DNA of 64,000 bases from an uncultured Gemmatimonadales bacterium (GCA_963809895.1 CAWELD010000003.1:1184001-1248000), one strand, 5' to 3'. Shown: positions 1 through 63,548, counted from the first letter of the stretch. Notes: generated by a model from the letters alone, not told the origin. Numbers and translations: made by a program.

Positions 1-1
1 G

Positions 2-7424: not shown

Positions 7425-7438
7425 CGAGCCGACGACCC

Positions 7439-8347: not shown

Positions 8348-8352
8348 TCTGA

Positions 8353-9638: not shown

Positions 9639-9708
9639 TCCACCCTACACCAACTTCGAGGGGTCGAAGCCTGCAGCCGCGGCGCCGCCGCCCACGCACG
9701 GAGAGCAC

Positions 9709-33399: not shown

Positions 33400-33740
33400 C
33401 GCGTTCGTGTCAACGCGTGCGACGAGACCGAAGGAACGGCTGGCGTCAGCCAACGGGAGGTAGAGACCTCCTTTCGTTTGGTCCTGGCCGATCCCTTCGC
33501 GTCCCTCGGTTCCTACCAGCCCCGCGTCGTCCACGACGCTGACTATCGCATACGCATGAAGATCGAGGATCGAGAGGAGGGCGGCGAACGAAGCTGGCAC
33601 GGGCCACGATAGGCGGCACGGGGCGGACCCGCAACGGACGTGCGCCGTCTTGCCCTCCACCTACCCGCATCCTACCGTGCGCCTTGAGCTGGGGCGGACG
33701 ATCGACGCCAAGCAGCTGTGAACCGGACGCGGGAGATGCG

Positions 33741-42293: not shown

Positions 42294-42321
42294 AGAAGCA
42301 CCTCCGAGCAGGGCTCACTCC

Positions 42322-43503
42322 GTGACACTCGACGTCCGCCGCATGCGCGACTCCGAGCGGGAAGCGATGCTGGAGATGCACATGCAAGCCTTCCGCTTGC
42401 CCCCCTACCGGGAGGCCAGGGTCCGCGCGACTCCCCTCGAGGAAGGGTGGGTCGTCGAGGACGCGGGGAGACTCGTGGGAGGGCTGCGGGCCGAATGCCT
42501 CGCTCAGTACTTCGGCGGACGGCCCGTGCCGAGCGCGGCGGTCAGCGCTGTGAAGGTGGCGCCGGAGGCGCGGGGGCGAGGCATTGGAGGACTCCTCCTT
42601 CGCCAGGTGCTCGACGAACTGAGGCAGGAGGGCGAGTTCCTCTCCTTCCTGTATCCCTCCAGCATCGGGTTCTACCGCCGGGTCGGCTACGAGGTGGCAT
42701 TCGGGCATTCCCGCTATGGCCTGTCGCTCCATCAGCTCCCCCGCGAAGGGTCTCTGGTGGCGGAGCCGTGGGAGGACGGCGAGCTCGAAGAGGTCAAGGA
42801 CTGCTACGAGAGGGTGGCTCGGGCTTCGACCGGGCTCGTGGCACGCTCCGCCGACTGGTGGGACGAGCGCATCCTGTCGTCCCGACAAGGAGAGCGCGTC
42901 TATCGGTACGCGGTCCGAACGGGAGGGAAGCTGACCGGCTACGTGGTCTACACCCACGAGGCGGCGTCGGCCGACCTTCCCTACGCCTTCGCCCTCTCGT
43001 GCCGGGACCTGGTGTGGGAGGACGCGGAGAGCGCCTCCTCCCTGCTGGCCTTCGCGTCCGCCAACGCGGGCCTAGGCGTGGAACTGGAGTGGCCCGGCTC
43101 ACCGCTGGATCCGCTCCTGACGTCGCTCACCGGCCAGCTCCCCCGCGCGATCTCCAGCCTGCCGGGAATGGTGCGGCTCATCGACGTGCGGGGCGCGCTG
43201 GAAGCCAGGGGCTACCCGGACGACGTCGAAGCGACGGTGGAGTTGGAGGTGTCCGACCCCTGCATTCCCGCCAACGAAGGGACCGTGCGACTGACGGTGG
43301 CGGGAGGGAGCGGGCACGTTGAGAGCGTGTCGAGCGCGGCGGCCAGAGTCGGGGTCGACGCGCTGGCGGCGCTCTACACCGGCTGGCTCCCCGCCGGGAG
43401 CTTGGCGCGATTGGGTCGGATCCAGGATGCCAGGCCGGAGACGTTGCGTACGCTCGAGAAGCTCTTTCTGGGGCCCACGCCCTGGGTCGTAGCCGTGTTC
43501 TGA
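42322..43503 (+). CDS. Eis-like GNAT acetyltransferase with C-terminal SCP2-like domain
   Basis: VAPEARGRGIG, LYPS..FYRRVGY, MVRLIDVRGALEARGY, LAALYTG. Confidence 0.88.
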   Translation: MTLDVRRMRDSEREAMLEMHMQAFRLPPYREARVRATPLEEGWVVEDAGRLVGGLRAECLAQYFGGRPVPSAAVSAVKVAPEARGRGIGGLLLRQVLDELRQEGEFLSFLYPSSIGFYRRVGYEVAFGHSRYGLSLHQLPREGSLVAEPWEDGELEEVKDCYERVARASTGLVARSADWWDERILSSRQGERVYRYAVRTGGKLTGYVVYTHEAASADLPYAFALSCRDLVWEDAESASSLLAFASANAGLGVELEWPGSPLDPLLTSLTGQLPRAISSLPGMVRLIDVRGALEARGYPDDVEATVELEVSDPCIPANEGTVRLTVAGGSGHVESVSSAAARVGVDALAALYTGWLPAGSLARLGRIQDARPETLRTLEKLFLGPTPWVVAVF

Positions 43504-45431
43504 TGAGGATTCCCATGAGAGGTTGCCCCGTGACGTCCATGCAGAGGGCCCCCCGTATCCTGGCGGCATTCGCGTTCCTGGTGATCGCCGGAGTCATGCG
43601 CTCGGAGACACCCCTGGTCGCCCAGACATATCCCGGGGCTCCGGGACCGTACGCGGTGCGCGTCGACTCGACCGTGTTCATCACCCTTTCCGACGGCGTC
43701 CGACTGGCGGCCGACCTGTATGTCCCGTCCGGGGTGGGCCAGCAGGTCCCCGCCATCGTATGGCGCACACCCTACGACAAGAACCGGTTCCGGGACCGTG
43801 ACCCGCAACTGCGGGTCCTCGCGTCGCACGGCTACGTCGTCGTGGCGGAAGACGTGAGAGGGCGGTTCGAATCTGAGGGGGTCTTCAACGTCCAGGCCGA
43901 CGACGCGAAGGACGGCTACGAGACCATCGAGTGGGTGGCCGATCAGCCATGGTCCGACGGCAAGGTGGGGATGTTCGGGTGCTCGTACTCGGGGGAGGCC
44001 CAGATCCTGGCGGCGCCCCGCCACCCTCCGCACCTGACGGCCATGATCCCCCGGGCGGCTGGGGCCCCGGCCCGTTGGCTGGGTGGGTACAACGGCGGGG
44101 CCTTCGAGCTGGCCCTGCCGTTCAATTGGTTTCGGGAGAACGCAAGCAAGGTGCACCTGGTCCCCGCGGCCGGGATACCGGACTCGCTTTTCCGGAAGGC
44201 ACTTCCGTATCTGCAGATGACGTCCCACGTGGAGCCGACGGACTATCGTGCCCTGTGGCGCACGCTGCCGCTGGTGGGGATGGTGGAACGATCCGGGGCG
44301 CCGCCCACCGACTTCGACGCCTTCGTGTCGCACCCGCCTCCGGATCCGTGGTGGAATCGGTTCGGCCTCCCGTCGGACACGATGACCTACGAAGTGCCGG
44401 CGCTGCAGGTGAGCTCCTGGTACGACTACGGCGTCGCTCAGACGCTGGACCTGATGAATCGGATGTATCGCCAGGCCAGCAACGATGCGGGGCGCCAACA
44501 GTACGTGGTGATCTCCCCCACGACCCACTGCGGCTCCGAAGCCGCCACGGAGCGGACGATGGTGGGGAACCGCGACGTCGGAGACGCCCGCTTCGACTAC
44601 GCCACGCTCTACCTCGACTGGTGGGACCGCTGGCTGCGGGGCAACCAGGAAGCCCTCGATGGATGGCCCACGGTCCGATACTACGTGATGGGCAGGGGCG
44701 AGTGGCGGACGGCCGACGCCTGGCCGATACCGGGGACGGACTTCACGAAGTACTACTTCCATTCGGACGGACGGGCCAACAGTCGCTTCGGGGATGGCAC
44801 GCTGTCGACCGAGATGCCGAGTGGGGATGAGCCCGCGGATCGGTACGTCTATGACCCGGACGTCCCGGTGCCCAGCGTGGGAGGGCCGCTTTGCTGCACG
44901 GGCTCGCCGGACTGGCCGGCGGGCGCGTTCGATCAGTCCGAGGTGGAAGCCCGGAACGACATCCTCGTTTACACCACGGCGCCCCTGGAGCGGGGCGTGG
45001 AGGCCACCGGGCCCCTGAGGGCGGTGCTCCAGGTGTCGTCCGATGCCCGCGACACGGACTTCACGATGAAGCTCGTGGACGTCTATCCCGACGGACGGGC
45101 GTTCAACGTGCAGGAGGGGATCCTCCGCGCGCGGTACCGCGAAGGTCTCGATCGACAGGTGTGGATGGAGCCGGGCGGGGTCTACCAGGTGGAGATCGAC
45201 CTCCAGGTGACCAGCAACTACTTCCCGGCCGGACACCGGATCCGCGTCGAGGTCTCGAGCTCCAACTTCCCCCGCTTCGACCGAAACCTGAACACCGGCG
45301 GGAAGAACTGGGATGAGACGGAGTGGAAGGTCGCGCGGAACGTGATCCACCATTCCGCGGCTCACCCGTCCTATCTGATCCTCCCGGTCATTCCGGATGC
45401 AGACGGCGCGGCCGAGCCCGCGGGCCGCTGA
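43503..45431 (+). CDS. Secreted CocE/NonD (S15-type) serine hydrolase
   Basis: DGVRLAADLY, RTPY, DVRGRFESEG, GCSYSG, WYD, SSNFPRFDRN; signal peptide. Confidence 0.93.
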   Translation: MRIPMRGCPVTSMQRAPRILAAFAFLVIAGVMRSETPLVAQTYPGAPGPYAVRVDSTVFITLSDGVRLAADLYVPSGVGQQVPAIVWRTPYDKNRFRDRDPQLRVLASHGYVVVAEDVRGRFESEGVFNVQADDAKDGYETIEWVADQPWSDGKVGMFGCSYSGEAQILAAPRHPPHLTAMIPRAAGAPARWLGGYNGGAFELALPFNWFRENASKVHLVPAAGIPDSLFRKALPYLQMTSHVEPTDYRALWRTLPLVGMVERSGAPPTDFDAFVSHPPPDPWWNRFGLPSDTMTYEVPALQVSSWYDYGVAQTLDLMNRMYRQASNDAGRQQYVVISPTTHCGSEAATERTMVGNRDVGDARFDYATLYLDWWDRWLRGNQEALDGWPTVRYYVMGRGEWRTADAWPIPGTDFTKYYFHSDGRANSRFGDGTLSTEMPSGDEPADRYVYDPDVPVPSVGGPLCCTGSPDWPAGAFDQSEVEARNDILVYTTAPLERGVEATGPLRAVLQVSSDARDTDFTMKLVDVYPDGRAFNVQEGILRARYREGLDRQVWMEPGGVYQVEIDLQVTSNYFPAGHRIRVEVSSSNFPRFDRNLNTGGKNWDETEWKVARNVIHHSAAHPSYLILPVIPDADGAAEPAGR

Positions 45432-45448
45432 GTCGGAGGACCGTAAGG

Positions 45449-48141: not shown

Positions 48142-49598
48142 GCCCGACCACCTCCACCCAGAGCCGTCCCGGCCTGCACAAGGAGCTCAGGTCACTCCAG
48201 TTCTTCGCGGTGGCCTTCGGGGCGACCATCGGAGTGGGCTGGATTGTCGTGCTGGGCGATTGGTTGGAGGCCGCGGGGCCTGGTGGGACGATGCTCGGTT
48301 TTCTCGTCGGCGGGTGCATCATCGCCGTCATCGCCCTCTGCTATGCGGAGCTCGCGACGGTGTTTCCGTCGGCGGGCGGTGAGTTCGTCTACAGCTACGC
48401 GCTCTACGGCATCAAGACGTCGTTCGTCGCCGGGTGGCTCCTGGCCATGGCGTACCTGGCGGTGACCGCCTTCGAGACCATCGCCGTGGGGTGGATCGCC
48501 AACGCCCTGATCCCGGGCCTGGAGGGGCCGGTACTCTTCCATGGGATCGGCGGGAGTCCGGTCCACCTGGGCACCATCTTCCTCGGTTTCGGGGGGCTCG
48601 TCCTGATCTCGGCCCTGAACTACCGCGGCGTCGGATGGGCGTCGGTATTCCAGGAGGCGCTCACCTACGGATTGACCGTCGCCTTCCTCCTGTTCGTGGG
48701 AGCCGGGATCCTCCTGGGCGACGTGGCGAACCTGAAGCCCGCCTTCCACGCGTCCGGGGGCGGATCCGTGTGGCTCGGAACGCTCGGAATCCTCATCCAG
48801 ACGCCGAACTGGCTGGTGGGGTTCAACTTCGTGCCCCAGCTCATGGAGGAGAAGGCGCCCGACACACCGATCCGCAGGGTGGGGCTCGTGATGGTCTCTT
48901 CCGTCCTCTCGGCTACCCTCTTCTACCTCCTCGTCGTCTTGGCGTGCTCCATGGTGACACCCTGGCCGACGCTCGTGGGGATGGAGCTTCCGGCAGCGGG
49001 CGCGTTCGAGGCGCTCCTGGATTCGCCCATCCTCGCCAAGCTGGTGCTCCTTGCGGGCCTCATGGGTCTGGTCACCACCTGGAACGCGGTCTTCATGGGA
49101 GCGTCCCGGATCCTCTTCGCGCTCGGGCGCGCTCGGATCATCCACCCGTCGTTCGCGTCGGTGCACCCCGAGTTTGGCACCCCCGGGAGGGCCGTGCTCT
49201 TCGTGACCGCGATCGGCGCGGTCGCGAGCCTGCTGGGTCGCGATGCGCTCGTGCCATTGCTCAATGTGGTCGCGGCCGCCCTGTCGTTCCTCTTCATCCT
49301 CACCTGCTGGGGAGTCGTGCGCCTCCGCCGCCGGCGTCCCGAGGTGCAGGCCGCGTATCGCGTGCCGGGGGGCGCCGTGACCGGGATGGTGGCGTCTGCC
49401 GCATCGGTCGCCTTTCTCGTCCTGGCGCTCGCCCAGCCGTACGCCGCGGCCGGCAGGCGCTTCCCCCTGGAATGGGGAATCATCCTGGTGGGAGGAGTGG
49501 TCGGGATGGCTCTGTGGAGGTTGGGGCGCGAGACCCGGGACGAGTTGAGCGAGGACGATCGGAGCCGGGTCGTCCTGGGAGACGAGAGCCTGTGGTGA
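48138..49598 (+). CDS. APC-family amino acid permease
   Basis: FGATIGVGW, YAEL..PSAGGE, about 12 TM segments, YRVPGG. Confidence 0.92.
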   Translation: MSPTTSTQSRPGLHKELRSLQFFAVAFGATIGVGWIVVLGDWLEAAGPGGTMLGFLVGGCIIAVIALCYAELATVFPSAGGEFVYSYALYGIKTSFVAGWLLAMAYLAVTAFETIAVGWIANALIPGLEGPVLFHGIGGSPVHLGTIFLGFGGLVLISALNYRGVGWASVFQEALTYGLTVAFLLFVGAGILLGDVANLKPAFHASGGGSVWLGTLGILIQTPNWLVGFNFVPQLMEEKAPDTPIRRVGLVMVSSVLSATLFYLLVVLACSMVTPWPTLVGMELPAAGAFEALLDSPILAKLVLLAGLMGLVTTWNAVFMGASRILFALGRARIIHPSFASVHPEFGTPGRAVLFVTAIGAVASLLGRDALVPLLNVVAAALSFLFILTCWGVVRLRRRRPEVQAAYRVPGGAVTGMVASAASVAFLVLALAQPYAAAGRRFPLEWGIILVGGVVGMALWRLGRETRDELSEDDRSRVVLGDESLW

Positions 49599-49621
49599 CC
49601 GTATCGCGGGGAACCGACCCG

Positions 49622-49649
49622 TAGGTACAACAGGGCCTCCCGCTTCGTC
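49622..49649 (+). promoter_or_regulatory. Putative ECF-sigma promoter TAGGTACAA-N15-CGTC
   Basis: Intergenic, upstream of the second CocE gene. Confidence 0.65.
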
Positions 49650-49723
49650 CACTACATGAACCGTAGGCTACTCGCCGCCCACACGGCCGACGGCATGCGC
49701 GCGGGGCGGCACAGGAGATCCGC

Positions 49724-52102: not shown

Positions 52103-53296
52103 TCAATCGTCGAGCAGGAGGAAGATCTCCCGTTGGATCTTCGACGGCGTCACGACGGGCCCTTGGTCGCTCCAGAACACGTTGATCTCGCTACGCACGC
52201 CAATCTCGCCCGCGATGTAGATCCCGGGTTCCACCGAGAACCCCACTCCGGGAACGAGCAGCCGGTCGTCTCGGGTCTCCAGGTTGTCCAGATTCGGTCC
52301 GCTCCCATGGAGCATGGTATCCATGGAATGGCCCGTACGGTGGAGGAAGTACTCCCCGTAGCCCCGCTCCGCGATGAGATGGCGTGACGCGTCGTCCACC
52401 TCGTAGCCGCGCACGTCTTGACCGGCCTCGAAGCGCTCTCGCAGGAACTCCACGGCGGCATCGCGCGCATCGCGCACGGCTTCCCAGATCCTCTGGGTCC
52501 GGTCGTCCACCGTGGAGCCCATCATTCCCATCCAGGTCTGGTCGGCGGGTACCGAGCCGGCCCTGCCCGCGAACAGATCGATGAGCAGCAACTCGCCTTC
52601 CGCGATGGTTTCACCGGCACCCGCGACGCGGTAGTGCGGATCCGAAGCGGTCCGTCCCACCGCCACGGTGCAGCCGGCCTGCTCGGGCAGGCGGCGCTCG
52701 TGGAGCTCGGCGCGGATCCAGTCGGACAGGGCCCCTTCACTGGTAGGGCTTCCGGCCCGGATGGCGTCGGTCGCACGCTGGAAGGCGCCCTCCACCACGT
52801 CCACCAGAATCTCCGCCGCCTCCATGTGGTCCTCGGCCTGTCTCCCGGTCCAGACCGAATGGAAACGAGACACCAGATTCCCGGACGACACCATCTCCGC
52901 GCCCGAGCGGCGCACGACGTCGGCCATCCCGACGGGCAAATAGTCCAGGGTCGGCACGGCCGCCCCCGGAGAAACCTCCATGGCCAGCCTCCTCCGGCCG
53001 CGCAGGATCCGGGCCAGCCCCGACTCCATTTCCCGCCAGCCCCGGTAGCTCTGTTTCGCCCATGGCCACTGGCGCCATGCCGATCCCTCGATAGCATGGA
53101 TGAGCGCGCGGGGCTCCCCGTGGGCGGGGATGAGAAAGAAGCTACGCCGGGTGGTCTTGCCCACGGCCAACATGGCCTTGGAAATGGGATTTGCTCCACG
53201 GAACTCATAGAGGAGCCAGCCGTCCAGGCCTTCCTCCCGCAGCGCCTCCTGGACCTGCCGGATCCCCTTCTCACTACACAGTAGAGGCTCTGCCAT
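52103..53296 (-). CDS. M24-family metallopeptidase (Xaa-Pro aminopeptidase-like)
   Basis: DPHY, LLID, ADQTW, HRTGH, SVEPGIY, GVRSE. Confidence 0.92.
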   Translation of the reverse strand: MAEPLLCSEKGIRQVQEALREEGLDGWLLYEFRGANPISKAMLAVGKTTRRSFFLIPAHGEPRALIHAIEGSAWRQWPWAKQSYRGWREMESGLARILRGRRRLAMEVSPGAAVPTLDYLPVGMADVVRRSGAEMVSSGNLVSRFHSVWTGRQAEDHMEAAEILVDVVEGAFQRATDAIRAGSPTSEGALSDWIRAELHERRLPEQAGCTVAVGRTASDPHYRVAGAGETIAEGELLLIDLFAGRAGSVPADQTWMGMMGSTVDDRTQRIWEAVRDARDAAVEFLRERFEAGQDVRGYEVDDASRHLIAERGYGEYFLHRTGHSMDTMLHGSGPNLDNLETRDDRLLVPGVGFSVEPGIYIAGEIGVRSEINVFWSDQGPVVTPSKIQREIFLLLDD

Positions 53297-53319: not shown

Positions 53320-55692
53320 CTACCGGGGCCGCTGCTCGATCCTGTAGTCGTAGGGCGGCTCCTCTCCCAGAAGCTGCCGCACGAAGAAGTCCCACACCCG
53401 TCGGATGAAGTAGGGCTCCTGTGAGTAGCCGTGGCCCCGGTCCGGCATGATCAGGAGATCGAAGCTCTTGTTGGCCCCGACCAGGGCATTCACCAAGCGA
53501 ATCGTGTTCGCGGGATGCACGTTGTCATCCATGTCGCCGGTCACCAGGAGCAGCTTCCCTCTCAGGCGGGACGCTCGGAGGTAGTTCTTCTGATTCTCGT
53601 AGCTGTCCGTGTGATGCACGGTATCCATCTGGAGGAGTCCCTGGTATCTCTCCGCCCAGGGGGAGCTGTACGTACGGTTGTCCTGGTTGCCCGAGGCTGC
53701 GACTCCGACCTTGTAGAAGTCCGGGTACGACAACATGGCGTCCACGGTGGCGAATCCACCGCCCGAGAACCCGTAGACGCCCAGACGCGTCAGATCCATC
53801 CAGGGCCGTGACGCGGCCAGCTGTTTGAGGCCGTGGACGTGATCGGGTAGTCCAGCGTCGCCCAGGTTTCCGTACCAGGTGTCATGCCACGCCTTCGAAC
53901 GGAGGTTCGTGCCCATGGCGTCGATCTCCACCACCACGAAGCCAAGCTCGGCCAGCGCCGGGGGCTGGCCTATGGTCGCGTAATTCAAGACCGGCTCACG
54001 CGTCGGAAAGAACCACTTGGGCGCCGTGATGGTCTGGGGCCCCCCGTAGATATGATCGATGACCGGGTACTTTTTGCGTGGGTCGAAGTTGGACGGCTTG
54101 AAGAGCACACCATAGACGTCATGGATGCCGTCGCGTGCCTTTACGTGAAAAGGCTCTGGCGGCTTCCAACCCAAGGCCGACAGGCGGGAGATGTCGGCGC
54201 GCGCGACGGTTCGCACGATTCGACCCTCCCGGTCACGCAGCACGGTCACCTGAGGCTGATCGACGCGTGAATACGTATCCGTGAAATAGCGACCGTCAGG
54301 AGCGAAATGGATAACGTGCTGGGCTTCTTCGGGTGTCAGCAACCTGAGATCCGAGCCATCGAAATTCTCGACGTACAACGGAGCGAAATAGGGGTCGACG
54401 CCCGGCTGCCGGCCTCGAGCCGTGAAGAAGACCTGACGCGTGGTCCCGTCGACATACATGAGGTCGCCCACCGTCCAGCCCCCGCCTGTGACACGGCTCG
54501 CCGTTCCACCATCGCGATCGTAGCGGTAGAGATGCCCCCAGCCGTCGCGCTCCGACCACCAGATGACGTCGTCACCTCCGTTGACCACGTCCCAGTTGGG
54601 CGGTCGGTGGACGTCTTCATTGACCTCGACGTAGGTGCGGCTGCTGTCCCGGACCACCGGGTGGGCCGATCCCGTCTCTGGATCCACGTCCCACAACGTC
54701 ACCTTCTTGTTGGCACGCGTGACCGTGGTCACGAAGAGGGCATCTCCATCCTCCGTCCATTTCACCGCCCACCACGTCGTGCCGTCGGGCGCCATGGGAC
54801 TGATGCCGTTCATCGGGTACGGCGTCGAAGGCACGTCCACCTTGACCGTCCTGTGCGCAACGACGTCGGCGACATACACGTCGTACCGCGGGATCACCGA
54901 ATCGCCCGGGAGAGGATACGGGTAGGTGTACAGCACCGGCCGCTCGCGGGTCGAAGAGTAGAGTGGCATGCGCGGCACGTCCCGTTGGTCCAGACGCCGC
55001 ACCGCGAAGTACCGCGAGTCCGGGCTCCATTGCCCCACCGGGCGGAGTGGGCTGAGGGACAACCCCTGGCTCGCGCCATAGGTGTGATCCTCCACGCCAT
55101 CGTGCGTCAACGCCACGCTGTCCCCACCGCTTGTGGGTTTCACGTACAGATTGTGGTCGCGCGTAAACACGACCCATTTCCCATCGGGCGAGGGAAAATC
55201 CAAGGGGGAACGCAGTCCCGCCGTATCATCCGCCATGCAGGTGTACGCTTCAATATCGCAGCGGAACAGCCGCGCATCGGCCCGGAACTGGATCACCCGT
55301 TCATCGTCGGTGAGATCGAAGCCCCCGAACGGCAGCGCATGGGGATCGTAGACGGTGTCGTTGGCCAGGGACATGGCTTCGGCCAGCCGACCGTTTTCGA
55401 AGAGGGGGCGCTGCGTGTTGTGTTGAGGGTCCACGACGAGGTACTCCGCACCCTCCGGGCCGTTGTCGCGAAACCAGAAGCGATCGCCCTTCATCCAATG
55501 AGGGATCACGAGGTCGTGGCTGATGAGCGGCAGCGTGTTCCAGGTGAGAAACTGCTCGGCGCGATGGTAGGCGGCCTCCTGCGCGACCGCAGGGCCGGGT
55601 GCGGCCAGCGAGACGGCGAGGCACGGCCCGAGCATGGCGAGCACCCCCATGGGGCCCGGCCAGGTCGAATGGTGAGGGTGTTTGCTGTTCAC
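53320..55692 (-). CDS. Secreted S9-family dipeptidyl peptidase IV-like protein
   Basis: Signal peptide, WSPDS, SERDGWGHLY, YGGP, GFSGGG, DDNVH, GHG; GTGA overlap with the upstream gene. Confidence 0.93.
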   Translation of the reverse strand: MNSKHPHHSTWPGPMGVLAMLGPCLAVSLAAPGPAVAQEAAYHRAEQFLTWNTLPLISHDLVIPHWMKGDRFWFRDNGPEGAEYLVVDPQHNTQRPLFENGRLAEAMSLANDTVYDPHALPFGGFDLTDDERVIQFRADARLFRCDIEAYTCMADDTAGLRSPLDFPSPDGKWVVFTRDHNLYVKPTSGGDSVALTHDGVEDHTYGASQGLSLSPLRPVGQWSPDSRYFAVRRLDQRDVPRMPLYSSTRERPVLYTYPYPLPGDSVIPRYDVYVADVVAHRTVKVDVPSTPYPMNGISPMAPDGTTWWAVKWTEDGDALFVTTVTRANKKVTLWDVDPETGSAHPVVRDSSRTYVEVNEDVHRPPNWDVVNGGDDVIWWSERDGWGHLYRYDRDGGTASRVTGGGWTVGDLMYVDGTTRQVFFTARGRQPGVDPYFAPLYVENFDGSDLRLLTPEEAQHVIHFAPDGRYFTDTYSRVDQPQVTVLRDREGRIVRTVARADISRLSALGWKPPEPFHVKARDGIHDVYGVLFKPSNFDPRKKYPVIDHIYGGPQTITAPKWFFPTREPVLNYATIGQPPALAELGFVVVEIDAMGTNLRSKAWHDTWYGNLGDAGLPDHVHGLKQLAASRPWMDLTRLGVYGFSGGGFATVDAMLSYPDFYKVGVAASGNQDNRTYSSPWAERYQGLLQMDTVHHTDSYENQKNYLRASRLRGKLLLVTGDMDDNVHPANTIRLVNALVGANKSFDLLIMPDRGHGYSQEPYFIRRVWDFFVRQLLGEEPPYDYRIEQRPR

Positions 55693-56654
55693 GATCGTCT
55701 CCCGGCCTTGTGACCGTCCTCCCGCTTCCGCCAGTACCTGGCGAGCCCATGCCAGCAGTCCTTCGGGTCGGCGGCCAGCAGGTAGGCCTCGATGACCTCT
55801 GGGTCCTGTAGCTGTTCCATGACCTCTGCGCGTACCGCCTCGGCGAACCGTCGCGCCCGTTCCGCGTCCTCCCGGCCGTCCGACAGAGACGCACGGACCC
55901 GTTCCCCCCAGTCGCGCAGCGTGTGCAGCAGGGTCGTGAGGTGTGCGTCGGTCTCGCCGGTCGGGCCGAAGTGCGAGAGGAAGAGGCGGGAGGGCCGCCA
56001 GGCCCGGATTCCGGCGATGGACTCCTCCCAGAGCCCCAGGTCGATGTCGGGAGGCGGCGTGGTCGGGAGAACCAGCGGCCGACCCTCGATGCAGATCCCG
56101 CCCACATCGCCAACGAACGCGGTGCTCGTGGAAGGCTCGAAGTAGGCCGCGTGGTGCGAGGCGTGTCCCGGCGTATAGGCCACCTCCAGATGCCTCTCGC
56201 CCACCTGGACGTGGTCTCCGTCCGTCACGACGCGGACGTTCTCTGCTGGCACAGGCAGCACTTCGCCCCACAGCTCGTCCATCCGCTCCCCGTAGATGCG
56301 CCGCGCGCTCGCGAGCAGTCTCGCCGGGTCCACGAGATGTCGAGCGCCGCGTTCGTGGACGAAGACCTCCAGGCGTGGATTGTCCCGCACGAGCGACCCG
56401 ACCGTGCCGGCATGATCCAGGTGGATGTGGGTCAGCAGGACGGCGTTGATATCCGCGATGCCGAGTCCGAGCGTCTCGAGCCCCCGCCGAAGCCTGGGGA
56501 GCACCGACGCCGGCCCCGGGTCCACCAGGGCTCGCTTGGTTCCTCCATCCAGCAGGGCCACGGCAAGCGCGAGGGGCGCCCCCCACTCCACGTCGATCAT
56601 GGTCAGGTCATCGGCGAGAACCTCGGTCCGCACCGCTCCGGAGTCGCCGCTCAT
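55689..56654 (-). CDS. MBL-fold metallo-hydrolase
   Basis: [30 protein letters not shown]. Confidence 0.9.
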
Positions 56655-58633
56655 AGGGACGATCCTCCCGACCCACCTACGCCCACGGCCGTCCGGATCG
56701 ATCGCACCGCGGACGGGTTTTCGAGCGCGGACGTGTCGCCGGGATCCTCACCGAGGTAGGCGGCGCGAATGACGCGCCGCATGACCTTGGCGCTTCGCGT
56801 ACGGGGAAGGTCGGGGACGAAGAGCACCTTCTCCGGAGCGAGCGCCCGTCCGAGCTCGTCGGCTACATGGTGGCGGAGCTCGTCGGCCAGCTCGGATCCG
56901 CCCGCCTGGGGATTGACGAGAATGCACAGGGCCACCATCGAGGTGCCCTTGACCGCGTGAGGCACGCCGATGACCGCCGCCTCCGTGACTGTGGGATGGC
57001 CCACGAGCACGGACTCGAGCTCCGCCGGCCCGACCCTCTTCCCGGCCACCTTCAACGTGTCGTCGCTCCGGCCGAGGATATACCAGAATCCGTCCTCATC
57101 GACCCTGGCCCAGTCGCCGTGCGCCCAGACGTCATCGAACCGACTCCAGTAGGTGGTGACGTACCTCCCGGGATCGTTCCAGAACCCCCGAGCCATGCCG
57201 ATCCAGGGCTTGCGAATGACCAGCTCGCCCACGTCACCCCGTACGGATCGGCCGTCGTCGTCCACGACGTCGGCGTCGATCCCCGGGCACGGAGCGGGGA
57301 AGGAGCACGGTTTGAGCGGGAGGATCGGGTTCCCGCACAGGATTCCGCCCGAGATCTCCGTTCCTCCCGAGTAGTTCACGATCGGGGCCCGCCCGCTGCC
57401 CACGGTCTCGAAGAGCCACCACCACGGGTCCGGATTCCATGGCTCCCCCGTCGATCCGATGATCCGAAGGGTGGAGAGGTCGTGGCGACGCACAGGCCCG
57501 GCTCCGTGCACCATGAGCGCCCGGACCAGGGTAGGCGAGATGCCGAGGACCTCGATGGCGTGCCGCTCGCACAGATCCCACACGCGGTCCGGCGCAGGGT
57601 GATCGGGCGCACCGTCGTAGAGGACCATGGTGCCGCCGAGAAGCAGGGATCCGTAGATGAGCCAAGGGCCCATCATCCAACCGATGTCCGTGACCCAGTG
57701 GATCCGCGTTCCGCGCCCCACGTCCATCCCGAAGGCCATGTCCTGGGCAGCCTTGATCGGGAAGCCACAGTGGGAGTGCTGGATCCCCTTCGGCCGCCCC
57801 GTCGTGCCGGAGCTGTAAAGCACGAGCAGGGGGTCTTCCGCGCCGGTCGACGCGACCCCCGCGGCGTCGGCGCCCGCCGCGGCACCCGATGCCAAGACCG
57901 CTTCGTACCAGATGTCGCGCGGGGCGTCCATCTGGACGGGGATCCCCGAACGACGAACCACGATCCGGTGCACGAGATCCGGGCATCGCGCCACCGCTTC
58001 GTCGCACACCTCCTTCGCCGGAACCAGGCGGTCACGGCGTGGGAACGCATCTGCGGTGATCAGGGCTCGCGCCTTCACGTCGCGGAGCCGGGAAGCGATC
58101 GCCGCGGGACCGTAGCCGCTGAACAACGGGACAGCCAGCGCGCCGATCCGCCCCGCCGCCAGAAGCGCGACCACGGTTTCCGGAATCATCGGCAGATGGA
58201 TGCCCAGCGCGTCGCCCGGTTCCAACCCCAGCGCCCGGAGCCCCGCGGACAGTTGCCGCACCTCCACCGCGAGTTCGCCGTAGGTGAGCGTCCGGGTGCG
58301 ACCTTCCTCCCCCTCCCAGATCACCGCCGCCCGATCCTCGGCTTCCGTCCCGAGCCACCGATCCAGGCACGCCTCCACGACGTTGAGCCCCCCACCTACA
58401 CACCAGTGCGCCCAGGGGAGCCCCTCCGAGAGATCCACCACCTGCTCGTAGGGCGGGTCAAACCGGACATCCAGGAACTCCAGAACCGCCCCCGTGAACC
58501 AGGACACGTCCTCCACGGAGCGCCGGTGCAGCTCGTCGAAGTCGGAGATCCCGTGCCGACGCATGAAGTCCGTGAGCCGGGCGCGCGAGAGTGTCTCGGG
58601 GTCCGGGCGCCATACGATCTCGCCGGACCTCAT
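56651..58633 (-). CDS. Acetyl-/acetoacetyl-CoA synthetase-like ligase
   Basis: [46 protein letters not shown]. Confidence 0.92.
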
Positions 58634-59289
58634 TCAACCACTGGTCCTAGCGCCGCCCGCACCTGTTTGAGGGCCACGACGAGGTAGTTGGCCACCGTGC
58701 GTGGAGCCAATCCGGTGACCTCTCCGATCTCCCTGTAGGACATGTCGTGCAGGTGGGCGAGAACGAAGACCTCCTTTCGCCGCGGCGAGAGTCCGTCGAT
58801 GGCTCCCTCGATGGCGAGGGCGAGCTCGCTCAGCTCGGCCTCGGCGTCAGGTGCCCTGAATCCTCCCACAATGGGTTCGTAGCGCCGCTCGATCCTCCGG
58901 GTCTGGCTTCGGAGTCGCCGCTCCCGATCAATGGTCATGTTCCTCGTGATCCGGTAGAGGTAGGATTGGGGGGAGCGGACCTTGGAAAGCTCTCCACGCT
59001 TCTGCCACACGCGAATCAGGACCTCCTGCACCACGTCTTGCGCAGCGTCCGAATCACCCAGCATTCGAGCCGCATACGCATGGAGCCGCTCACCATGTCC
59101 CTCGACAAGGGCGGCGAAGGCGCCGGTGTCGCCGGCTTCGATGGCCGCGAACAGCGCACGGGTCACCTCCTCGTTCTCCGCGGATGGCGAGTCGGAGCGC
59201 GACGGTCGCGGCCGTCCAGGGGTCATGGGCACCTCACTTCGGTATTCGCCCGACACCCTCTGCGCCATGGCGGACCAGGAGTCCGTCAT
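58630..59289 (-). CDS. ECF RNA polymerase sigma factor
   Basis: [45 protein letters not shown] overlaps on both sides. Confidence 0.9.
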
Positions 59290-60785
59290 CGCTCACCCCC
59301 CCGATCGAGGTCGTCGCCGGGATGGGAGAGGGCGGCGAGAATGAGCTTGCGACGCTCGGCTCCCGTGAGCGCCTCCCGAGGCCTGCGGGCCAGCCTCCAG
59401 AAGACCGCGCCGAGCACCACCCACGTACCGAGGACGACCCCCTCCGTCGATACGCCTGTCGGCTTCAGGAACAGTTGATTGATCGCCAGGAGGAGGATGA
59501 AGATGGATCCCGCGACGGCCAGGCCGGCGGTGAGAGAGCCCCCGGGCGCACGGTAGGGTCGAACCGCATGCGGACGGGTCCGCCGCAGCTGAATCAGGCA
59601 CGCCGCCGTTACCAGGAACGCCACGGCGAAGCAGATGCCGGACAGGTTCACGATGGGCGTGATGGCGTTGCGTCCGGCGAAGGCCCCGATCGTCCCGACC
59701 GAGCCTACGAACAGAACAGCATGGCCAGGTGAACCATACCGCCCCTGGACGCGGCCGAAGGTCGTGGGGATCAAATGAGCGCGCCCGAGCGCGAAGAGCA
59801 CCCGGGCGCCGCCGAGGAAGGTGGTGTTCCAGGTCGTGACGAGACCCAGCAACGCGGCGAGGAGCACCACCTTGCCGATCCCCGCGATGGGGAATGCACC
59901 TTCGAAGGCTGCTGCAGCAGGAAGATCGGCGTCCAGGAGCTGCTGCCACGGCTGCGTCATGGAGGCTGACAGGATCACGAGACAGTAGAAGACGGCCGCC
60001 AGCCCGATGGACAAGAGCACCATCTTGCCGACGACCGCGAGCCGCGTTCCCTCCGAGACCTCCTCCAGCGCCTGAGGAATCACGTTGAACCCGGAAAACC
60101 AGAATGGGACCGTCATGAACACCGCGAACATGCCGGCAAGCCCATCGCCGCCCCCCGAGCCGAAGTAGGGCCGTAGATTCGCGGGATCCCCCCACACCAG
60201 CCCCGAACCAATAAAGACCAACGACAACCCAAGCAGGACGAACGTCAGGATATCCTGGAGCCGAGCGGCGGATCCACCGCCCCGATAGTTGAACCACGTC
60301 AGCAGGCTCATTCCGCCCACGCCGATGACGATGTCCCCCAGGTGGACGGGAGCACCGAGGCTCGTGTACAAAACGGGCCCCTCCAAGGCGGGAAAGAGGG
60401 CGGCGACAACCCACCCGATCGATATCGCCTCGAAGGTCGTGACTCCCACATACGCGAGGCCCAACAGCCACCCGACGGCGTACGCGGACCGGACGCCGAA
60501 GACCTCGTGGGCGTAGGCCACCTCGCCTCCGGCCACGGGAAGGAGGGTTGCGACCTCGGCGTAGCACAGGCCGATCAACATCATGAGGATGGCGCCCGCG
60601 CCGAATGCGAGCATCGCGCCAAGCGGGCCCGCCTGGTCCAGCCATTCTCCCAACACGATCACCCAGCCGACACCGATGATCGCCCCGAAGGCGAGCGTGA
60701 AGTACTGGACCGACCCAATCGCCCGCTTGAGAGTTCCGGTGGACTCGGCGACGTTCGCGTCGGGATCTGTGGCCGTGGACTTCAT
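59286..60785 (-). CDS. APC-family amino acid permease (paralogue of 48138-49598)
   Basis: FGAIIGVGW, YAEV..PVAGGE, about 12 TM segments, YRAPGG. Confidence 0.92.
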   Translation of the reverse strand: MKSTATDPDANVAESTGTLKRAIGSVQYFTLAFGAIIGVGWVIVLGEWLDQAGPLGAMLAFGAGAILMMLIGLCYAEVATLLPVAGGEVAYAHEVFGVRSAYAVGWLLGLAYVGVTTFEAISIGWVVAALFPALEGPVLYTSLGAPVHLGDIVIGVGGMSLLTWFNYRGGGSAARLQDILTFVLLGLSLVFIGSGLVWGDPANLRPYFGSGGGDGLAGMFAVFMTVPFWFSGFNVIPQALEEVSEGTRLAVVGKMVLLSIGLAAVFYCLVILSASMTQPWQQLLDADLPAAAAFEGAFPIAGIGKVVLLAALLGLVTTWNTTFLGGARVLFALGRAHLIPTTFGRVQGRYGSPGHAVLFVGSVGTIGAFAGRNAITPIVNLSGICFAVAFLVTAACLIQLRRTRPHAVRPYRAPGGSLTAGLAVAGSIFILLLAINQLFLKPTGVSTEGVVLGTWVVLGAVFWRLARRPREALTGAERRKLILAALSHPGDDLDRGGER

Positions 60786-60791
60786 CCGTGC

Positions 60792-61784
60792 CTACCGTGC
60801 TTCCGCTGCGCCGAGCTTGGGATAGCGGGTAGGCGTGTCCGACAGACCCAGAATCTTCCGTGCCTGCGCGGGGGCTGCAACCTCTCGATTCAGCTCGTGC
60901 GCGATCCGCACCGCCCGCTCCACCACCTCCCCATTTCCCTTCAGCTTGCGCCCGCGGCTGAAGTATATGTTGTCCTCCAGCCCCACCCGCACATGTCCTC
61001 CCATGAGGGTGGCCAGCGTCGTCATCGGCAGCTGGAACGGACCAATCCCGGACATGAGCCACTGCGTGCCGGCCGGGAACTCCCTCACGATCTGGAGCAC
61101 GTTGTCCACGGTCGGATAGCTCGACGTCTGATAGCCCATCACCGTCTGGATCCAATAGGGTGGCTCGATGAGCTCCAGCCGGGCGAGCTCGTCGATCACC
61201 CAGGAGCCGCCAGGCTGATACGTCTCCATTTCCGGCTTGATGCCGCGCTTCTTCATCTCGGTCGCCAACCATTCGATGATGGCATAGGTCCAGGGCAGGC
61301 AGGCGTCGATCTCCATCGCTTCCCGAGGATCGGGAAGCGGTGCCTCCCGAGCCTTCAGGTGGAAACGGACCATTTCCGGAGACAGATTGAGCGACGCTAT
61401 CTCCGGGTTCGCGTCCAGGCAGCTCGCCCGCTCCTCCATGGTCGCATGGTGGCTGGCGCCCGTGGTGTCATTGATGATGATGTCCGGACAGCGTTCCCGG
61501 ATCCGGCGATTGACCTCAAGCCAGTGCTCGGCCGTCGTGGCGGCCGAGGCCTGCCGGTCTGGGTGACGAGCGTGAACGTGCACCATGGATGCCCCGGCGT
61601 CGTACGCCTCGCCGACCGAGTCCGCGATCTCTTCCGGTGTCTCTGGGATCGCTTCGTTGTATTCCTTGCCCTGCAGCCCACCGTTGCACGCCACGCAGAT
61701 GATCATCGGAGGCATCCCTTCGCGGACGCGCTCCATGAATGCATAGCAGTCCGTATAGTCCCAGGTTTCGGTTATGTCAGGCAT
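60792..61784 (-). CDS. Beta-keto acid cleavage enzyme (BKACE / DUF849 / Kce family)
   Basis: IICVACNG, PETPEEI, AGASMVHVHAR, NDTTG, PEIASL, KPEME, GGHVRVGLEDN. Confidence 0.93.
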   Translation of the reverse strand: MPDITETWDYTDCYAFMERVREGMPPMIICVACNGGLQGKEYNEAIPETPEEIADSVGEAYDAGASMVHVHARHPDRQASAATTAEHWLEVNRRIRERCPDIIINDTTGASHHATMEERASCLDANPEIASLNLSPEMVRFHLKAREAPLPDPREAMEIDACLPWTYAIIEWLATEMKKRGIKPEMETYQPGGSWVIDELARLELIEPPYWIQTVMGYQTSSYPTVDNVLQIVREFPAGTQWLMSGIGPFQLPMTTLATLMGGHVRVGLEDNIYFSRGRKLKGNGEVVERAVRIAHELNREVAAPAQARKILGLSDTPTRYPKLGAAEAR

Positions 61785-62499
61785 GATCCTCGTCCGGTGA
61801 ACGTGGTTTGAGGGCCGTTCGACGCGACAACGCCCTCCAGGTGGAGGACCGGTTGCTCCGAAGGATGTCCCGCGCTTCGTCGAAGTCGCCGCGCCGTACT
61901 GCATCGAGCATAGCCTCGTGCTCCATCGGGGCATTCTGCCACTCGGTGGCCCCGCTCGTGAACCGATCCTCGAACACTCTCGAGAACTCCCAGATTTCGA
62001 GACGGCGCACTTGAGAACGGAGGTCGTCCGCCAGGTCACGCACAACGGAGTTGCCGCTGAAGACCGCAAGCAGATGATGGAACCGATCATTGGAGTCGAT
62101 GCACGTCTCCACATCGCCCCGTTCCGACGCCAGGCGGTACTTCTGGTTTACCGCCTCCAGCTGCTCGAACTCCTCCGGACCGAGGCGAGGGAACGCCAGC
62201 TCCCCCGCCAGGACCTCCACGGCGCACAACAGCGGATACCGTTCCAACAGGTCGTCGATGGATGGTTCCGGCACTCGGTAGCCTCGCTGGGGGATCCGCT
62301 CCAGGAATCCGTCTCCCGCGAGCCGGGCGAGAGCTTCGCGAATAGGCGTTCGGCTCACGCCCATGGCCGTTGCCAGCTCGCTCTCCCGGACGAAGGCGCG
62401 AGCCTTCAACTCACCGTTCAGGATCTTCTCTCGCACGGCATCGTGGACCCTCTCCGAGAGCGTCTCGCCGGTCGACAGCGTTGGCCATGTCGCATCCAT
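61777..62499 (-). CDS. GntR-family regulator (FCD domain)
   Basis: ESELATAMGVSRTPIREAL..DGFL; NDRFH, EHEAMLDA. Confidence 0.92.
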   Translation of the reverse strand: MDATWPTLSTGETLSERVHDAVREKILNGELKARAFVRESELATAMGVSRTPIREALARLAGDGFLERIPQRGYRVPEPSIDDLLERYPLLCAVEVLAGELAFPRLGPEEFEQLEAVNQKYRLASERGDVETCIDSNDRFHHLLAVFSGNSVVRDLADDLRSQVRRLEIWEFSRVFEDRFTSGATEWQNAPMEHEAMLDAVRRGDFDEARDILRSNRSSTWRALSRRTALKPRSPDEDHA

Positions 62500-62576
62500 G
62501 TGTGAAAATCCGCTTGTCAGGGTGTCATGTGCGTGACGGAGGGTCGAGGCTGCTGCGCGTCGTTACCGGGCGGTAT

Positions 62577-63548
62577 TCAAGGATGTGGCGTTTCGCGCTT
62601 GAGATGTCGCATCCGCTGGATGAGGACATCCCTCCACCGAGCGATGTCCTTCACAGCCGCACCGTTCTCCATCCGATCGGTATCCTGGGCGAGCCGTGCC
62701 AGGAAGGGGTCCTCGAACGCCGGCGTGGGGGCGAGATCTTCCATGATGTCCTGGTAGGTGTCGCGGTAGAGCGTGAAATACTCCTTCACCCCTCCCTTGG
62801 CGTTGGTGTTGGCCACGCCGAACGGTCCCAGGAGAGCCCACCGGAGCCCGAGGCCATCTCGTACGACGGCGTCCACCGCGTCGACGGTCGCCACCCCCCG
62901 CTCCACCAGCGAAAGGGCCTCGCGGAGCAGGGCCGCCTGGAGGCGGTTGAGAACGAAGCCGGGAACGAAGAAGGCCATGGCGACGGGCGTCTGGCCCAGC
63001 TCGGCCAGGAACTGCGTCGTCCGCTCGACCACCTCTGGGTCGGTGGAGGGCCCCGGAAGGACCTCCACACAGGGGATTACGTGGGGAGGGTTGGTCGGAT
63101 GTGCGACGATGCACCGCCCGGCGCAGGGGAGACCATCCGCGATCGCTGCCATGTCGATTGCCGACGTGCTGCTCGCCAGAATCGTGGATCCCGAGGTCGC
63201 CTCGCACAGGGCCGTGAACACGTCTCGCTTGATCTCCAGTCGCTCGGGACAGCTCTCCTGGACGTAGGCGACGCTCGACGCCGCATCCGCGAGCGAGGAC
63301 GCCCGCACGACCCGACGCTGCTGGTCCGAAGCCTCCGAAGCTGTGAGGGTCCCGTCGGCCACATCCATCGCGAGGCTTCGCTCCACCCATTCGAGGGCGG
63401 CACCGAGGCTCAATGGATCGGCATCCCAGACCCGGGTCTCCATGGCCCTGGCAAACACCCGGATCCAGCTTCGGCCCACGACACCGGTGCCGACGACCGC
63501 CGCGGATCGTCCAGTCTCCGCGGGCTGCGTTCCTGAGGGAGGGGTCAT
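62577..63548 (-). CDS. 3-hydroxyacyl-CoA dehydrogenase-family enzyme (carnitine / L-gulonate 3-dehydrogenase-like)
   Basis: GTGVVGRSW, VQESCPERLEIK, LASSTS, AHPTNPPH, GFVLNRLQ, GLGLRWA. Confidence 0.9.
   Translation of the reverse strand: MTPPSGTQPAETGRSAAVVGTGVVGRSWIRVFARAMETRVWDADPLSLGAALEWVERSLAMDVADGTLTASEASDQQRRVVRASSLADAASSVAYVQESCPERLEIKRDVFTALCEATSGSTILASSTSAIDMAAIADGLPCAGRCIVAHPTNPPHVIPCVEVLPGPSTDPEVVERTTQFLAELGQTPVAMAFFVPGFVLNRLQAALLREALSLVERGVATVDAVDAVVRDGLGLRWALLGPFGVANTNAKGGVKEYFTLYRDTYQDIMEDLAPTPAFEDPFLARLAQDTDRMENGAAVKDIARWRDVLIQRMRHLKRETPHP

What the first reader, a model, noticed from the sequence alone, without database searches (positions are those of the whole stretch)
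56651..63548. Carnitine-like 3-hydroxy acid / BKACE module linked to peptidases
Known: in carnitine catabolism a CoA-independent 3-dehydrogenase makes a beta-keto acid, and BKACE converts it with acetyl-CoA to acetoacetate plus an acyl-CoA. Seen: both enzyme types plus an acetoacetyl-CoA synthetase-like ligase in one arm and a thiolase in the other. The transporter is an APC permease, the neighbours are peptidases, and there are no betaine genes. Inference: the substrate is a 3-hydroxy amino acid released from peptides. A statine-type 4-amino-3-hydroxy acid is one candidate, since it would give an aminoacyl-CoA that the Leu-type dehydrogenase could use after hydrolysis. The substrate guess is speculative.
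Basis: partly seen in the sequence, partly recalled or inferred. Interest (0 to 1): 0.7.

Follow-up and report, generated by a model that had tools for sequence, protein, structure and literature searches.

The report
Uncharacterised dehydrogenase–BKACE–amino-acid-permease catabolic module
Three linked genes recur across many uncultured bacteria and most likely import a still unknown amine-bearing 3-hydroxy acid, oxidise it and cut it with acetyl-CoA, as in carnitine breakdown; the substrate is not carnitine, and nothing found here points specifically to statine.

Summary
The genes are real and overlap as one operon. The conserved core is a CoA-independent, L-gulonate-3-dehydrogenase-like enzyme, an intact BKACE and an APC permease. 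In 400 genomes of the phylum, 37 carry this BKACE clade. Of these, 36 have the permease (8 of 363 others) and 28 the dehydrogenase (3 of 363 others); 33 of 37 loci have a 3HCDH-fold gene within 300 bp. The clade (74 sequences, support 0.999) keeps all catalytic residues, lacks the Kce and carnitine signatures, and has an acidic residue at position 137 (63/74 versus 0/137). Elsewhere a beta/gamma-amino-acid transaminase sits beside it, and sister permeases sit with GABA/putrescine genes. An amine-bearing substrate is therefore likely but inferred. The thiolases, Leu dehydrogenase, M24 and S9 peptidases are not conserved partners (0/37), so the statine argument loses its support. A CocE hydrolase from the opposite arm is a partner (9/37). 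The ligase probably activates acetoacetate but is not module-specific. Earlier scan notes touched two relatives of this clade on other DNA. Verdict: new variant of a known pathway type, substrate open.

The parts
62577..63548 (-). Core. NAD-dependent 3-hydroxy-acid dehydrogenase, lambda-crystallin/L-gulonate 3-dehydrogenase type (3HCDH fold), predicted CoA-independent. FecR-SusC-SusD lie directly upstream, beyond the window end (L001 4089-9801)
   Evidence: Best PDB match 3ADO E 2e-56 vs <=1e-28 for CoA-ester enzymes; PRK06129 296/347, carnitine DH 169/592; S129, H150, N201, R236 align with 3ADO S124, H145, N196, R231; the CoA-contact K56 and N221 positions of C. butyricum HBD are T67 and G234
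61777..62499 (-). GntR/FCD regulator, stop overlaps BKACE start
   Evidence: orthologue-level match in 4 of 37 loci
60792..61784 (-). Core. BKACE (PF05853) of an uncharacterised clade with an N-terminal W-x-Y-x-D-x-Y extension and a beta-hairpin insert; all catalytic residues present
59286..60785 (-). Core. APC-family permease of a subfamily that tracks the BKACE clade
58630..59289 (-). ECF sigma factor, probable partner of the upstream FecR; local, not conserved with BKACE
   Evidence: 0 of 37 loci
56651..58633 (-). ACS/AACS-intermediate acyl-CoA ligase, probable alternative acetoacetate-CoA ligase; co-transcribed here but not a conserved part of the module
55689..56654 (-). MBL-fold hydrolase (ST1585/PqsE-like); weak candidate for the acyl-CoA thioesterase step
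   Evidence: 3ADR E 2e-11; PqsE 2e-7; orthologue in 1 of 37 phylum loci and 1 of 40 other loci
53320..55692 (-). S9/DPP-IV peptidase with signal-peptide-like N terminus; local neighbour only
   Evidence: 0 of 37
52103..53296 (-). M24 peptidase; local neighbour only
   Evidence: 0 of 37
43503..45431 (+). CocE/NonD hydrolase (cocaine-esterase-like, signal-peptide-like N terminus) in the opposite arm; its orthologue lies right after BKACE in relatives, so it is the likely acyl-removing partner
   Evidence: 9 of 37 phylum loci in 2 genera, plus L003 and L087; 57% to the L204 copy
48174..49598 (+). Second permease of the same APC subfamily, in the opposite arm

Best explanation
A catabolic cassette that works like the carnitine (CdhA/CdhC) and phloroglucinol (TfD/TAL) routes. 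(1) An ester or amide of the substrate is hydrolysed outside the cytoplasm, probably by the CocE hydrolase (inferred). (2) The APC permease imports an amino-acid-like 3-hydroxy acid (inferred). (3) The gulonate-dehydrogenase-like enzyme oxidises it with NAD+ to the free 3-oxo acid without CoA activation (fold and residues shown; activity inferred). (4) The Zn-BKACE condenses it with acetyl-CoA and releases acetoacetate plus an (amino)acyl-CoA (catalytic residues shown; activity inferred). (5) Acetoacetate is activated by the ACS-like ligase and split by any cellular thiolase. The substrate most likely carries a primary, N-acylated or N-methylated amine away from C3: an omega-amino-3-hydroxy acid such as 4-amino-3-hydroxybutyrate or a longer homologue. 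In other organisms the same BKACE clade is fed by a beta-amino-acid transaminase instead. About 0.85 for steps 3-4 as chemistry; about 0.55 for the whole, including the amine-bearing substrate.
For: BKACE residues (numbering from the PMC11961710 supplement; alignments): Zn H69/H71/E270, carboxylate T107/S131/N133, E187, Y189, R266, D271. Co-occurrence in one 400-genome phylum sample: BKACE 37; permease in 36/37 vs 8/363; dehydrogenase in 28/37 vs 3/363; a second 3HCDH-fold protein in 17 genomes, all BKACE-positive. Within one genus the same 10 of 24 genomes carry all three genes, although the permease is unlinked there. 33/37 loci have a 3HCDH-fold gene within 300 bp, in 6 of 9 genera. None of 120 loci of other BKACEs has these partners at the same thresholds (65 of them >=10 kb). 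18 contig lengths are shared between the top 120 BKACE and top 118 dehydrogenase homologues, against 1.4 in shifted controls (indirect). Amine evidence: a transaminase most like S. thermophilus beta/gamma-amino-acid omega-TA (6K8H; PMC10589169 passages) lies within about 1.6 kb of the BKACE in 7 loci (L016, L018, L092, L093, L099, L204, L219; PG[GA]xTR motif seen in 4, not displayed for 3). Five of the eight BKACE-negative permeases form a sister branch; the two of these loci I annotated hold a GABA transaminase, SSADH and an Orn/Lys decarboxylase, or a class III amine transaminase. Position 137 is D/E in 63/74 clade members and 0/137 others. Acidic members have permease, transaminase, acylase or peptidase neighbours in 48/55 loci >=5 kb; non-acidic members in 0/10, with a thiolase or CoA ligase in 7/10.
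Against: No enzyme was assayed and no substrate is identified. The acid/non-acid split follows the tree (probably one change), and most genomes belong to three genera, so the counts are not independent. Peptidase/acylase neighbours are common in these peptide-feeding bacteria. This protein departs from the clade consensus (E137/V139/A161 vs D137/S139/D-E161), so its substrate may differ from the majority. 9/37 BKACE genomes lack this dehydrogenase and 4/37 lack both types. No thioesterase or amine-disposal enzyme is conserved. CocE orthologues are adjacent in only 2 of 9 genera.
Confidence: 0.55

Rival explanations
1. The dehydrogenase and BKACE handle a neutral or fatty 3-hydroxy acid released from N-acyl amides, lipoamino acids or lipopeptides by CocE or penicillin-acylase-type enzymes. 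The permease imports the amine half of the same compound.
For: CocE, penicillin-amidase, beta-lactamase-family and M20 hydrolases recur near the BKACE. The opposite arm has a CoA ligase, SDR and two thiolases with CocE and a sister permease, and the SDR orthologue (58%) sits with BKACE, DH and CocE in L003. Position 14 is hydrophobic as in G1 enzymes, and this protein has V139/A161.
Against: Gulonate-type dehydrogenases act on small polar acids (recalled). An acidic residue at 137 is confined to members in amino-acid contexts, and the members next to lipid-type genes have F/L there. The minimal loci (L203, L211) are only permease-DH-BKACE, with no genes for an amine half.
Confidence: 0.2
2. 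One reading: statine-type 4-amino-3-hydroxy acids from peptides, giving leucyl-CoA for the Leu dehydrogenase.
For: Fits the general class (amine, C2 methylene, 3-OH). The Kce F114 position is small (V/S/G) in the clade, which could leave room for a side chain.
Against: Leu dehydrogenase, M24 and S9 are in 0 of 37 related loci; the Leu dehydrogenase is 25 kb away and one of five paralogues. The clade spans soils, sediments, digesters and anaerobes (record titles), wider than statine peptides would suggest (judgement).
Confidence: 0.05
3. Carnitine or another betaine is the substrate.
For: Same two enzyme families. Some clade members lie beside MttB/MtmB methyltransferases or a dimethylglycine-dehydrogenase-like gene (L018, L099, L092, L093), so N-methylated amines occur in the clade.
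Against: Carnitine DH models score 169/592 and 147/414. The BKACE lacks the TAG..LDCG signature seen in 3 reference-set proteins (the assignment of that signature to group G5 is recalled). No BCCT, no DMG dehydrogenase domain, no carnitine DH in the genome.
Confidence: 0.05
4. The substrate is a 2-deoxy or amino sugar acid, as the gulonate-dehydrogenase kinship and the deoxyribonate precedent suggest.
For: Best structural relative is L-gulonate 3-dehydrogenase; deoxyribonate is degraded by dehydrogenase plus BKACE (10.1101/205583 passages); one clade locus has a sugar-type ABC transporter (L016).
Against: No kinases, lactonases or glycoside hydrolases recur among the recurring neighbours annotated; the transporter is an APC permease.
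Confidence: 0.1
5. Non-canonical chemistry: the BKACE acetylates without CoA transfer (as flavophos BsfD does), or the dehydrogenase works on CoA esters or as part of an epimerase with the His-less second protein.
For: BsfD shows the family can deviate (10.64898/2026.01.15.699783 passages). The second 3HCDH-fold protein has Asn at the catalytic His position in 14 of 14 copies and co-exists with the first type in 12 genomes.
Against: Y189, the Tyr that canonical BKACEs have and BsfD lacks, is kept in 73/74. CoA-contact residues are missing from the dehydrogenase. The His-less protein was not found in this genome.
Confidence: 0.1

Closest known systems
Carnitine catabolism (carnitine 3-dehydrogenase CdhA + 3-dehydrocarnitine cleavage CdhC, BKACE group G5)
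   Same: 3HCDH-fold CoA-independent dehydrogenase next to a BKACE; transporter and an acyl-ester hydrolase nearby (P. aeruginosa arrangement recalled; G5 = carnitine from 10.1101/2023.02.15.528638 passages).
   Different: Dehydrogenase far below carnitine-DH cut-offs; different BKACE clade without the G5-type signature; APC permease rather than a betaine transporter; no betaine disposal genes found.
TfD + TAL of anaerobic phloroglucinol degradation, Clostridium scatologenes (PMC10470551, sections 8-9 read)
   Same: CoA-independent (S)-3-hydroxy-acid dehydrogenase lacking the K56/N221 CoA contacts, followed by a BKACE without Glu14; acetoacetate recycled.
   Different: No phloroglucinol reductase or cyclohydrolase among recurring neighbours; 3,5-dioxohexanoate model scores 174/430; amino-acid permease and transaminase context.
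Deoxyribonate oxidation, Pseudomonas simiae (10.1101/205583, passages)
   Same: Free 3-hydroxy acid to 3-keto acid to acyl-CoA plus acetoacetate; acetoacetate activation supplied by unlinked, redundant genes.
   Different: There an SDR dehydrogenase and MFS transporters; sugar-acid substrate.
Kce of lysine fermentation (2Y7D-G, group G2)
   Same: Fold (TM 0.77/0.92 to 2Y7F), Zn site, catalytic residues; amine-bearing 3-oxo acid.
   Different: Amine-binding Glu14 replaced by Leu; model score 217/382; no lysine-fermentation genes among recurring neighbours.
L-gulonate 3-dehydrogenase / lambda-crystallin (3ADO, 3F3S)
   Same: Closest solved structure over the whole length; S124/H145/N196/R231 positions kept.
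   Different: Bacterial, coupled to a BKACE; substrate untested.

Membership tests
BKACE (PF05853), catalytically competent | PF05853 over cut-off and TIM-barrel fold | tested here: met
   264 bits vs 24.8; model pLDDT 91.6, the top Foldseek matches (ranks 1-21) are DUF849/BKACE structures
BKACE (PF05853), catalytically competent | Zn ligands H46/H48/E230; carboxylate S82/T106/N108; E143, Y145, R226, D231 (Kce numbering) | tested here: met
   H69/H71/E270; T107/S131/N133; E187, Y189, R266, D271 (Zn-ligand numbering recalled)
BKACE (PF05853), catalytically competent | Acetyl-CoA-dependent release of acetoacetate | not testable with these tools
   needs assay
Kce, group G2 (3-keto-5-aminohexanoate) | Glu14 and NF052387 cut-off | tested here: not met
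   L37 (I/V/L in 71/74 of clade); 217/382
CdhC, group G5 (dehydrocarnitine) | TAG..LDCG-type signature (recalled) and adjacent carnitine dehydrogenase | tested here: not met
Groups G1 and G4 (3,5-dioxohexanoate, 3-oxoadipate enzymes) | NCBIfam cut-offs NF053538, NF053568; clustering with G1-like or G4-like motifs | tested here: not met
   174/430 and 185/350; clade of 74 contains none of the 6 G1-like or 13 G4-like sequences (motif labels recalled)
ASMC group G3 (mixed) of Bastard et al. 2014 | Placement in the published active-site clusters | not testable with these tools
   paper and supplement not seen; only described via PMC4922564 and 10.1101/2023.02.15.528638 passages
Carnitine 3-dehydrogenase | NF005716 / NF005471 cut-offs | tested here: not met
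   169/592, 147/414
CoA-independent 3-hydroxy-acid dehydrogenases (GDH/lambda-crystallin, TfD type) | Catalytic Ser/His/Asn kept; CoA-contact K56/N221 absent; closest structure GDH | tested here: met
PRK06129 (NF004783) | Curated cut-off 347 | tested here: not met
   296 bits, best of 15 models listed
Acetoacetate-CoA ligase (TIGR01217/NF002937) | Curated cut-off | tested here: not met
   375/521, 444/639
Acetoacetate-CoA ligase (functional) | Enlarged acyl pocket and complementary distribution with the canonical enzyme | tested here: inconclusive
   acetate-ligase DTWWQTE motif replaced by NYSGGTE; 0 of 7 carriers have canonical AACS; no assay

The most novel reading that the evidence does not exclude
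This BKACE clade is the shared hub of an undescribed route for omega-amino 3-hydroxy and 3-amino acids (4-amino-3-hydroxybutyrate, beta-lysine-type diamino acids, their N-acyl or N-methyl forms). It would be fed either by two distantly related 3HCDH-fold proteins, one lacking the catalytic His, or by a beta-transaminase, and would read the amine with a new acidic residue instead of Kce Glu14. The transaminase-fed form could supply the genes for the 3-keto-6-acetamidohexanoate cleavage route of beta-lysine, described biochemically decades ago without sequences (recalled; searches returned no paper on it).
Probability: 0.3. Interest if true: 0.62.

Novelty: new variant of a known kind. Interest (0 to 1): 0.42.

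Why it matters
BKACE routes let cells cut 3-oxo acids without spending ATP on activation, and only a few natural substrates are known. [quoted passage not shown] It has a tight partner set and a clade-specific residue, so three proteins and one mutant would name a new catabolic pathway and a substrate for an unassigned APC subfamily. The chemistry itself is of a known type.

Tried and rejected
Loss of carboxylate binding: I first read PDMSKF as replacing T106/N108; the PMC11961710 supplement shows these are the SLN motif, which is kept. Rejected. Ligase as a conserved module member: present in 1 of 37 loci (G183), and there the cassette lies between an aminotransferase and the ligase that are direct neighbours in two BKACE-negative genomes (G098, G102). 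Rejected as conserved, kept as a probable general acetoacetate ligase. Second 3HCDH-fold protein as a simple replacement: 12 genomes have both types, so not exclusive. Class I CoA-transferase for acetoacetate: none found in the genome. Integrase or att duplicate at the tmRNA: no distant copy of the tmRNA 3' end longer than short chance-level matches. Promoter scan: no sigma-70 sites; terminator-like sites at chance level. Single-sequence locus scan found nothing; the alignment scan worked. ESM Atlas gave only generic BKACE clusters. No RNA holder listed. Plasmid collection held no clade member (best 40%). Hypusine, 3-hydroxyproline and hydroxyectoine were considered as substrates and set aside: no aldehyde dehydrogenase, reductase or Eut/Doe gene set recurs among annotated neighbours (an aconitase-X pair does recur in 7 loci of one genus and L096). 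Literature searches returned no paper describing this clade or module; subscription papers, including Bastard 2014 and Bellinzoni 2011, were not available.
Full report
Observation. The minus-strand arm reads FecR, SusC, SusD (beyond the window, L001 4089-9801), a 540-bp gap, then dehydrogenase 62577-63548, GntR 61777-62499, BKACE 60792-61784, APC permease 59286-60785, ECF sigma 58630-59289, acyl-CoA ligase 56651-58633, MBL hydrolase 55689-56654, S9 peptidase 53320-55692 and M24 peptidase 52103-53296. From GntR to S9 the genes overlap by 4-8 bp or are 6 bp apart. A convergent plus-strand operon (40183-52066) holds an SCP2-type thiolase, SDR, GNAT, CocE hydrolase, thiolase, BaiB-like CoA ligase, a second APC permease and a second CocE. 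The arm starts just downstream of the tmRNA gene and looks accessory. The BKACE was not found in 19 same-genus genomes, the dehydrogenase had no close match in 60 relatives, and the ligase had none in 40 at E<=1e-150.

Dehydrogenase. Its closest solved structures are the two lambda-crystallin/L-gulonate 3-dehydrogenase entries 3ADO and 3F3S (E 2e-56, 1e-52); CoA-ester enzymes score 1e-28 or worse. S129, H150, N201 and R236 align with 3ADO S124, H145, N196 and R231 (their roles in GDH are recalled) and are invariant or nearly so in 37 homologues. The two CoA-contact residues whose absence marked TfD as CoA-independent (PMC10470551 section 8) are also absent here. Carnitine dehydrogenase models score far below cut-off.

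BKACE. The AlphaFold model (pLDDT 91.6) matches DUF849/BKACE structures. All Zn, carboxylate and catalytic residues are present, including the Tyr that canonical enzymes have and the non-canonical BsfD lacks. In a tree of 211 de-duplicated sequences from fetched loci, it falls in a clade of 74 (FastTree support 0.999) that contains none of the Glu14-type (36), G1-like (6), G4-like (13) or G5-like (3) sequences; these motif labels are recalled, not curated. Kce Glu14 is I/V/L. By MAFFT, Kce L112 is D/E in 63/74 clade members and in 0/137 others, and F114 is mostly S/G (V here). HMMER pairwise alignments shift this stretch by one residue, and I could not inspect coordinates, so the pocket role is inferred.

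What travels with it. In one evenly drawn sample of 400 phylum genomes, 37 carry the clade. The permease orthologue is in 36 of these and 8 of the other 363. The dehydrogenase is in 28 and 3. A second 3HCDH-fold protein with Asn at the catalytic His position is in 17 genomes, all BKACE-positive, and was not found in ours. In the 37 fetched loci (10-20 kb), 19 have the first and 14 the second dehydrogenase type within 300 bp, 20 the permease, 9 the orthologue of the CocE from the window's other arm, 4 GntR, 1 the ligase, 1 the MBL protein, and 0 either thiolase, M24, S9, ECF, SusD or Leu dehydrogenase; SusC-like hits occur in 6, one genus (identity thresholds 30-45%). Among 40 further clade loci from other collections (many short), 3 have the dehydrogenase, 9 an APC permease of one of two types, 7 an ADP-forming acyl-CoA synthetase and 2 the CocE. 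None of 120 loci of other BKACEs has these partners. Most genomes come from three genera, so the counts overstate independence. However, the gene order differs between genera, and in one genus the same 10 of 24 genomes hold all three core genes at two separate sites.

Substrate clues. Seven clade loci have a transaminase most like the beta/gamma-amino-acid omega-transaminase 6K8H and beta-phenylalanine aminotransferase beside the BKACE (PMC10589169 passages). That gives a second route to a 3-oxo acid, and three of these loci (L092, L093, L219) share our permease type. Five of the eight permeases in BKACE-negative genomes form a sister branch; two annotated examples lie with GABA transaminase, SSADH and Orn/Lys decarboxylase, or a class III amine transaminase. 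Deacylases, carbamoylases, an arginase-like gene and N-demethylases occur in various loci. Members with an acid at 137 have amine or peptide-handling neighbours in 48 of 55 loci of 5 kb or more; the 10 non-acidic ones have none, and 7 sit with thiolases or CoA ligases. This split follows the tree and counts as about one event. Together these point to an amine-bearing acid, but no compound is singled out. Our copy differs from the consensus at three pocket-proximal positions.

Ligase and thiolase. The ligase is below all cut-offs and lies between acetate and acetoacetate ligases; the acetate-pocket motif is replaced. The genome has no canonical acetoacetate ligase and no class I CoA-transferase. 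None of 7 tested carriers of this ligase has the canonical enzyme, whereas 30 of 37 BKACE genomes do. It is therefore a likely alternative acetoacetate ligase. It also occurs in at least 5 genomes that are not on the BKACE list (7 hits at E<=1e-150, the two weakest not examined), and its one other BKACE neighbour looks positional. In the deoxyribonate route, acetoacetate activation is likewise unlinked or redundant (10.1101/205583 passages).

Comparison and verdict. The cassette works like carnitine CdhA/CdhC, phloroglucinol TfD/TAL and deoxyribonate oxidation, but fails membership of each on tested features. It is a member of the BKACE family and of the CoA-independent 3-hydroxy-acid dehydrogenases by residues. 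My searches returned no paper on this clade. Bastard 2014 and Bellinzoni 2011 were not seen, and a clade member may be in the former's mixed group G3 or its supplement; bioRxiv supplements were also not seen. What I saw of each paper: passages of 10.1101/2023.02.15.528638, PMC4922564, 10.64898/2026.01.15.699783, PMC10589169 and 10.1101/205583; passages plus sections 8-9 of PMC10470551; passages, section 9 and supplement passages of PMC11961710; the first part of 10.1101/2025.04.07.647545. The peptidases, thiolase and Leu dehydrogenase cited for statine are local neighbours. New variant of a known kind; interest 0.42.

Noticed in passing
L001 4089-9801 (just beyond the window end, minus strand): FecR, SusC-type TonB receptor and SusD directly upstream of the dehydrogenase; uptake/signalling unit whose link to the core is local and untested.
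   Followed up: partly
L001 9966-11015 (beyond the window end): tmRNA gene (minus strand) followed by two 261-bp tandem units (93% identical) and a degenerate third, with inverted repeats matching the tmRNA 3' end; MITE- or att-like; lies between tmRNA and FecR.
   Followed up: partly
L204 8455-9375; L205 8305-9243 and 12 other loci: 3HCDH-fold protein with Asn in place of the catalytic His; found in 17 of 400 phylum genomes, all with this BKACE clade; function unexplained.
   Followed up: partly
window 56651-58633 and L355-L359: ACS/AACS-intermediate ligase family: none of 7 tested carriers has canonical acetoacetate-CoA ligase; candidate non-orthologous replacement.
   Followed up: partly
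L013, L015, L017, L019, L020, L021, L032, L095, L097, L098, L100: Sub-branch of the same BKACE clade with F/L at position 137, mostly in anaerobes, next to SCP2-thiolase/ChsH2 pairs, acyl-CoA dehydrogenases or ligases.
   Followed up: partly
window 40183-52066 (+): Convergent operon: SCP2-type thiolase, SDR, Eis-like GNAT, two CocE hydrolases, thiolase, BaiB-like CoA ligase, APC permease; may degrade the acyl part of an acylated amine; SDR and CocE orthologues sit with BKACE in L003.
   Followed up: partly
window 58630-59289 and L001 8830-9801: ECF sigma factor is separated from FecR-SusC-SusD by the DH-GntR-BKACE-APC block and lies downstream of them, an unusual order that suggests rearrangement.
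   Followed up: no
L231 3516-5293, L096 4769-6067: Aconitase-X pair (cis-3-hydroxyproline-dehydratase-like, low score) next to the BKACE cassette in 7 loci of one genus and one metagenome locus.
   Followed up: no
L018, L099, L092, L093: BKACE plus beta-transaminase beside MtmB/MttB methyltransferases with corrinoid protein, or a dimethylglycine-dehydrogenase-like gene: suggests an N-methylated beta-amino acid.
   Followed up: no
L325, L326, L341: In one genus the unlinked permease is followed by a MaoC dehydratase and a CaiC-like acyl-CoA ligase.
   Followed up: no
window 32551-33612: IS21 istB remnants on both strands.
   Followed up: no
window 1-10221: Heavy-metal (Cus/CopC-like) efflux cluster with sensor kinase.
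   Followed up: no
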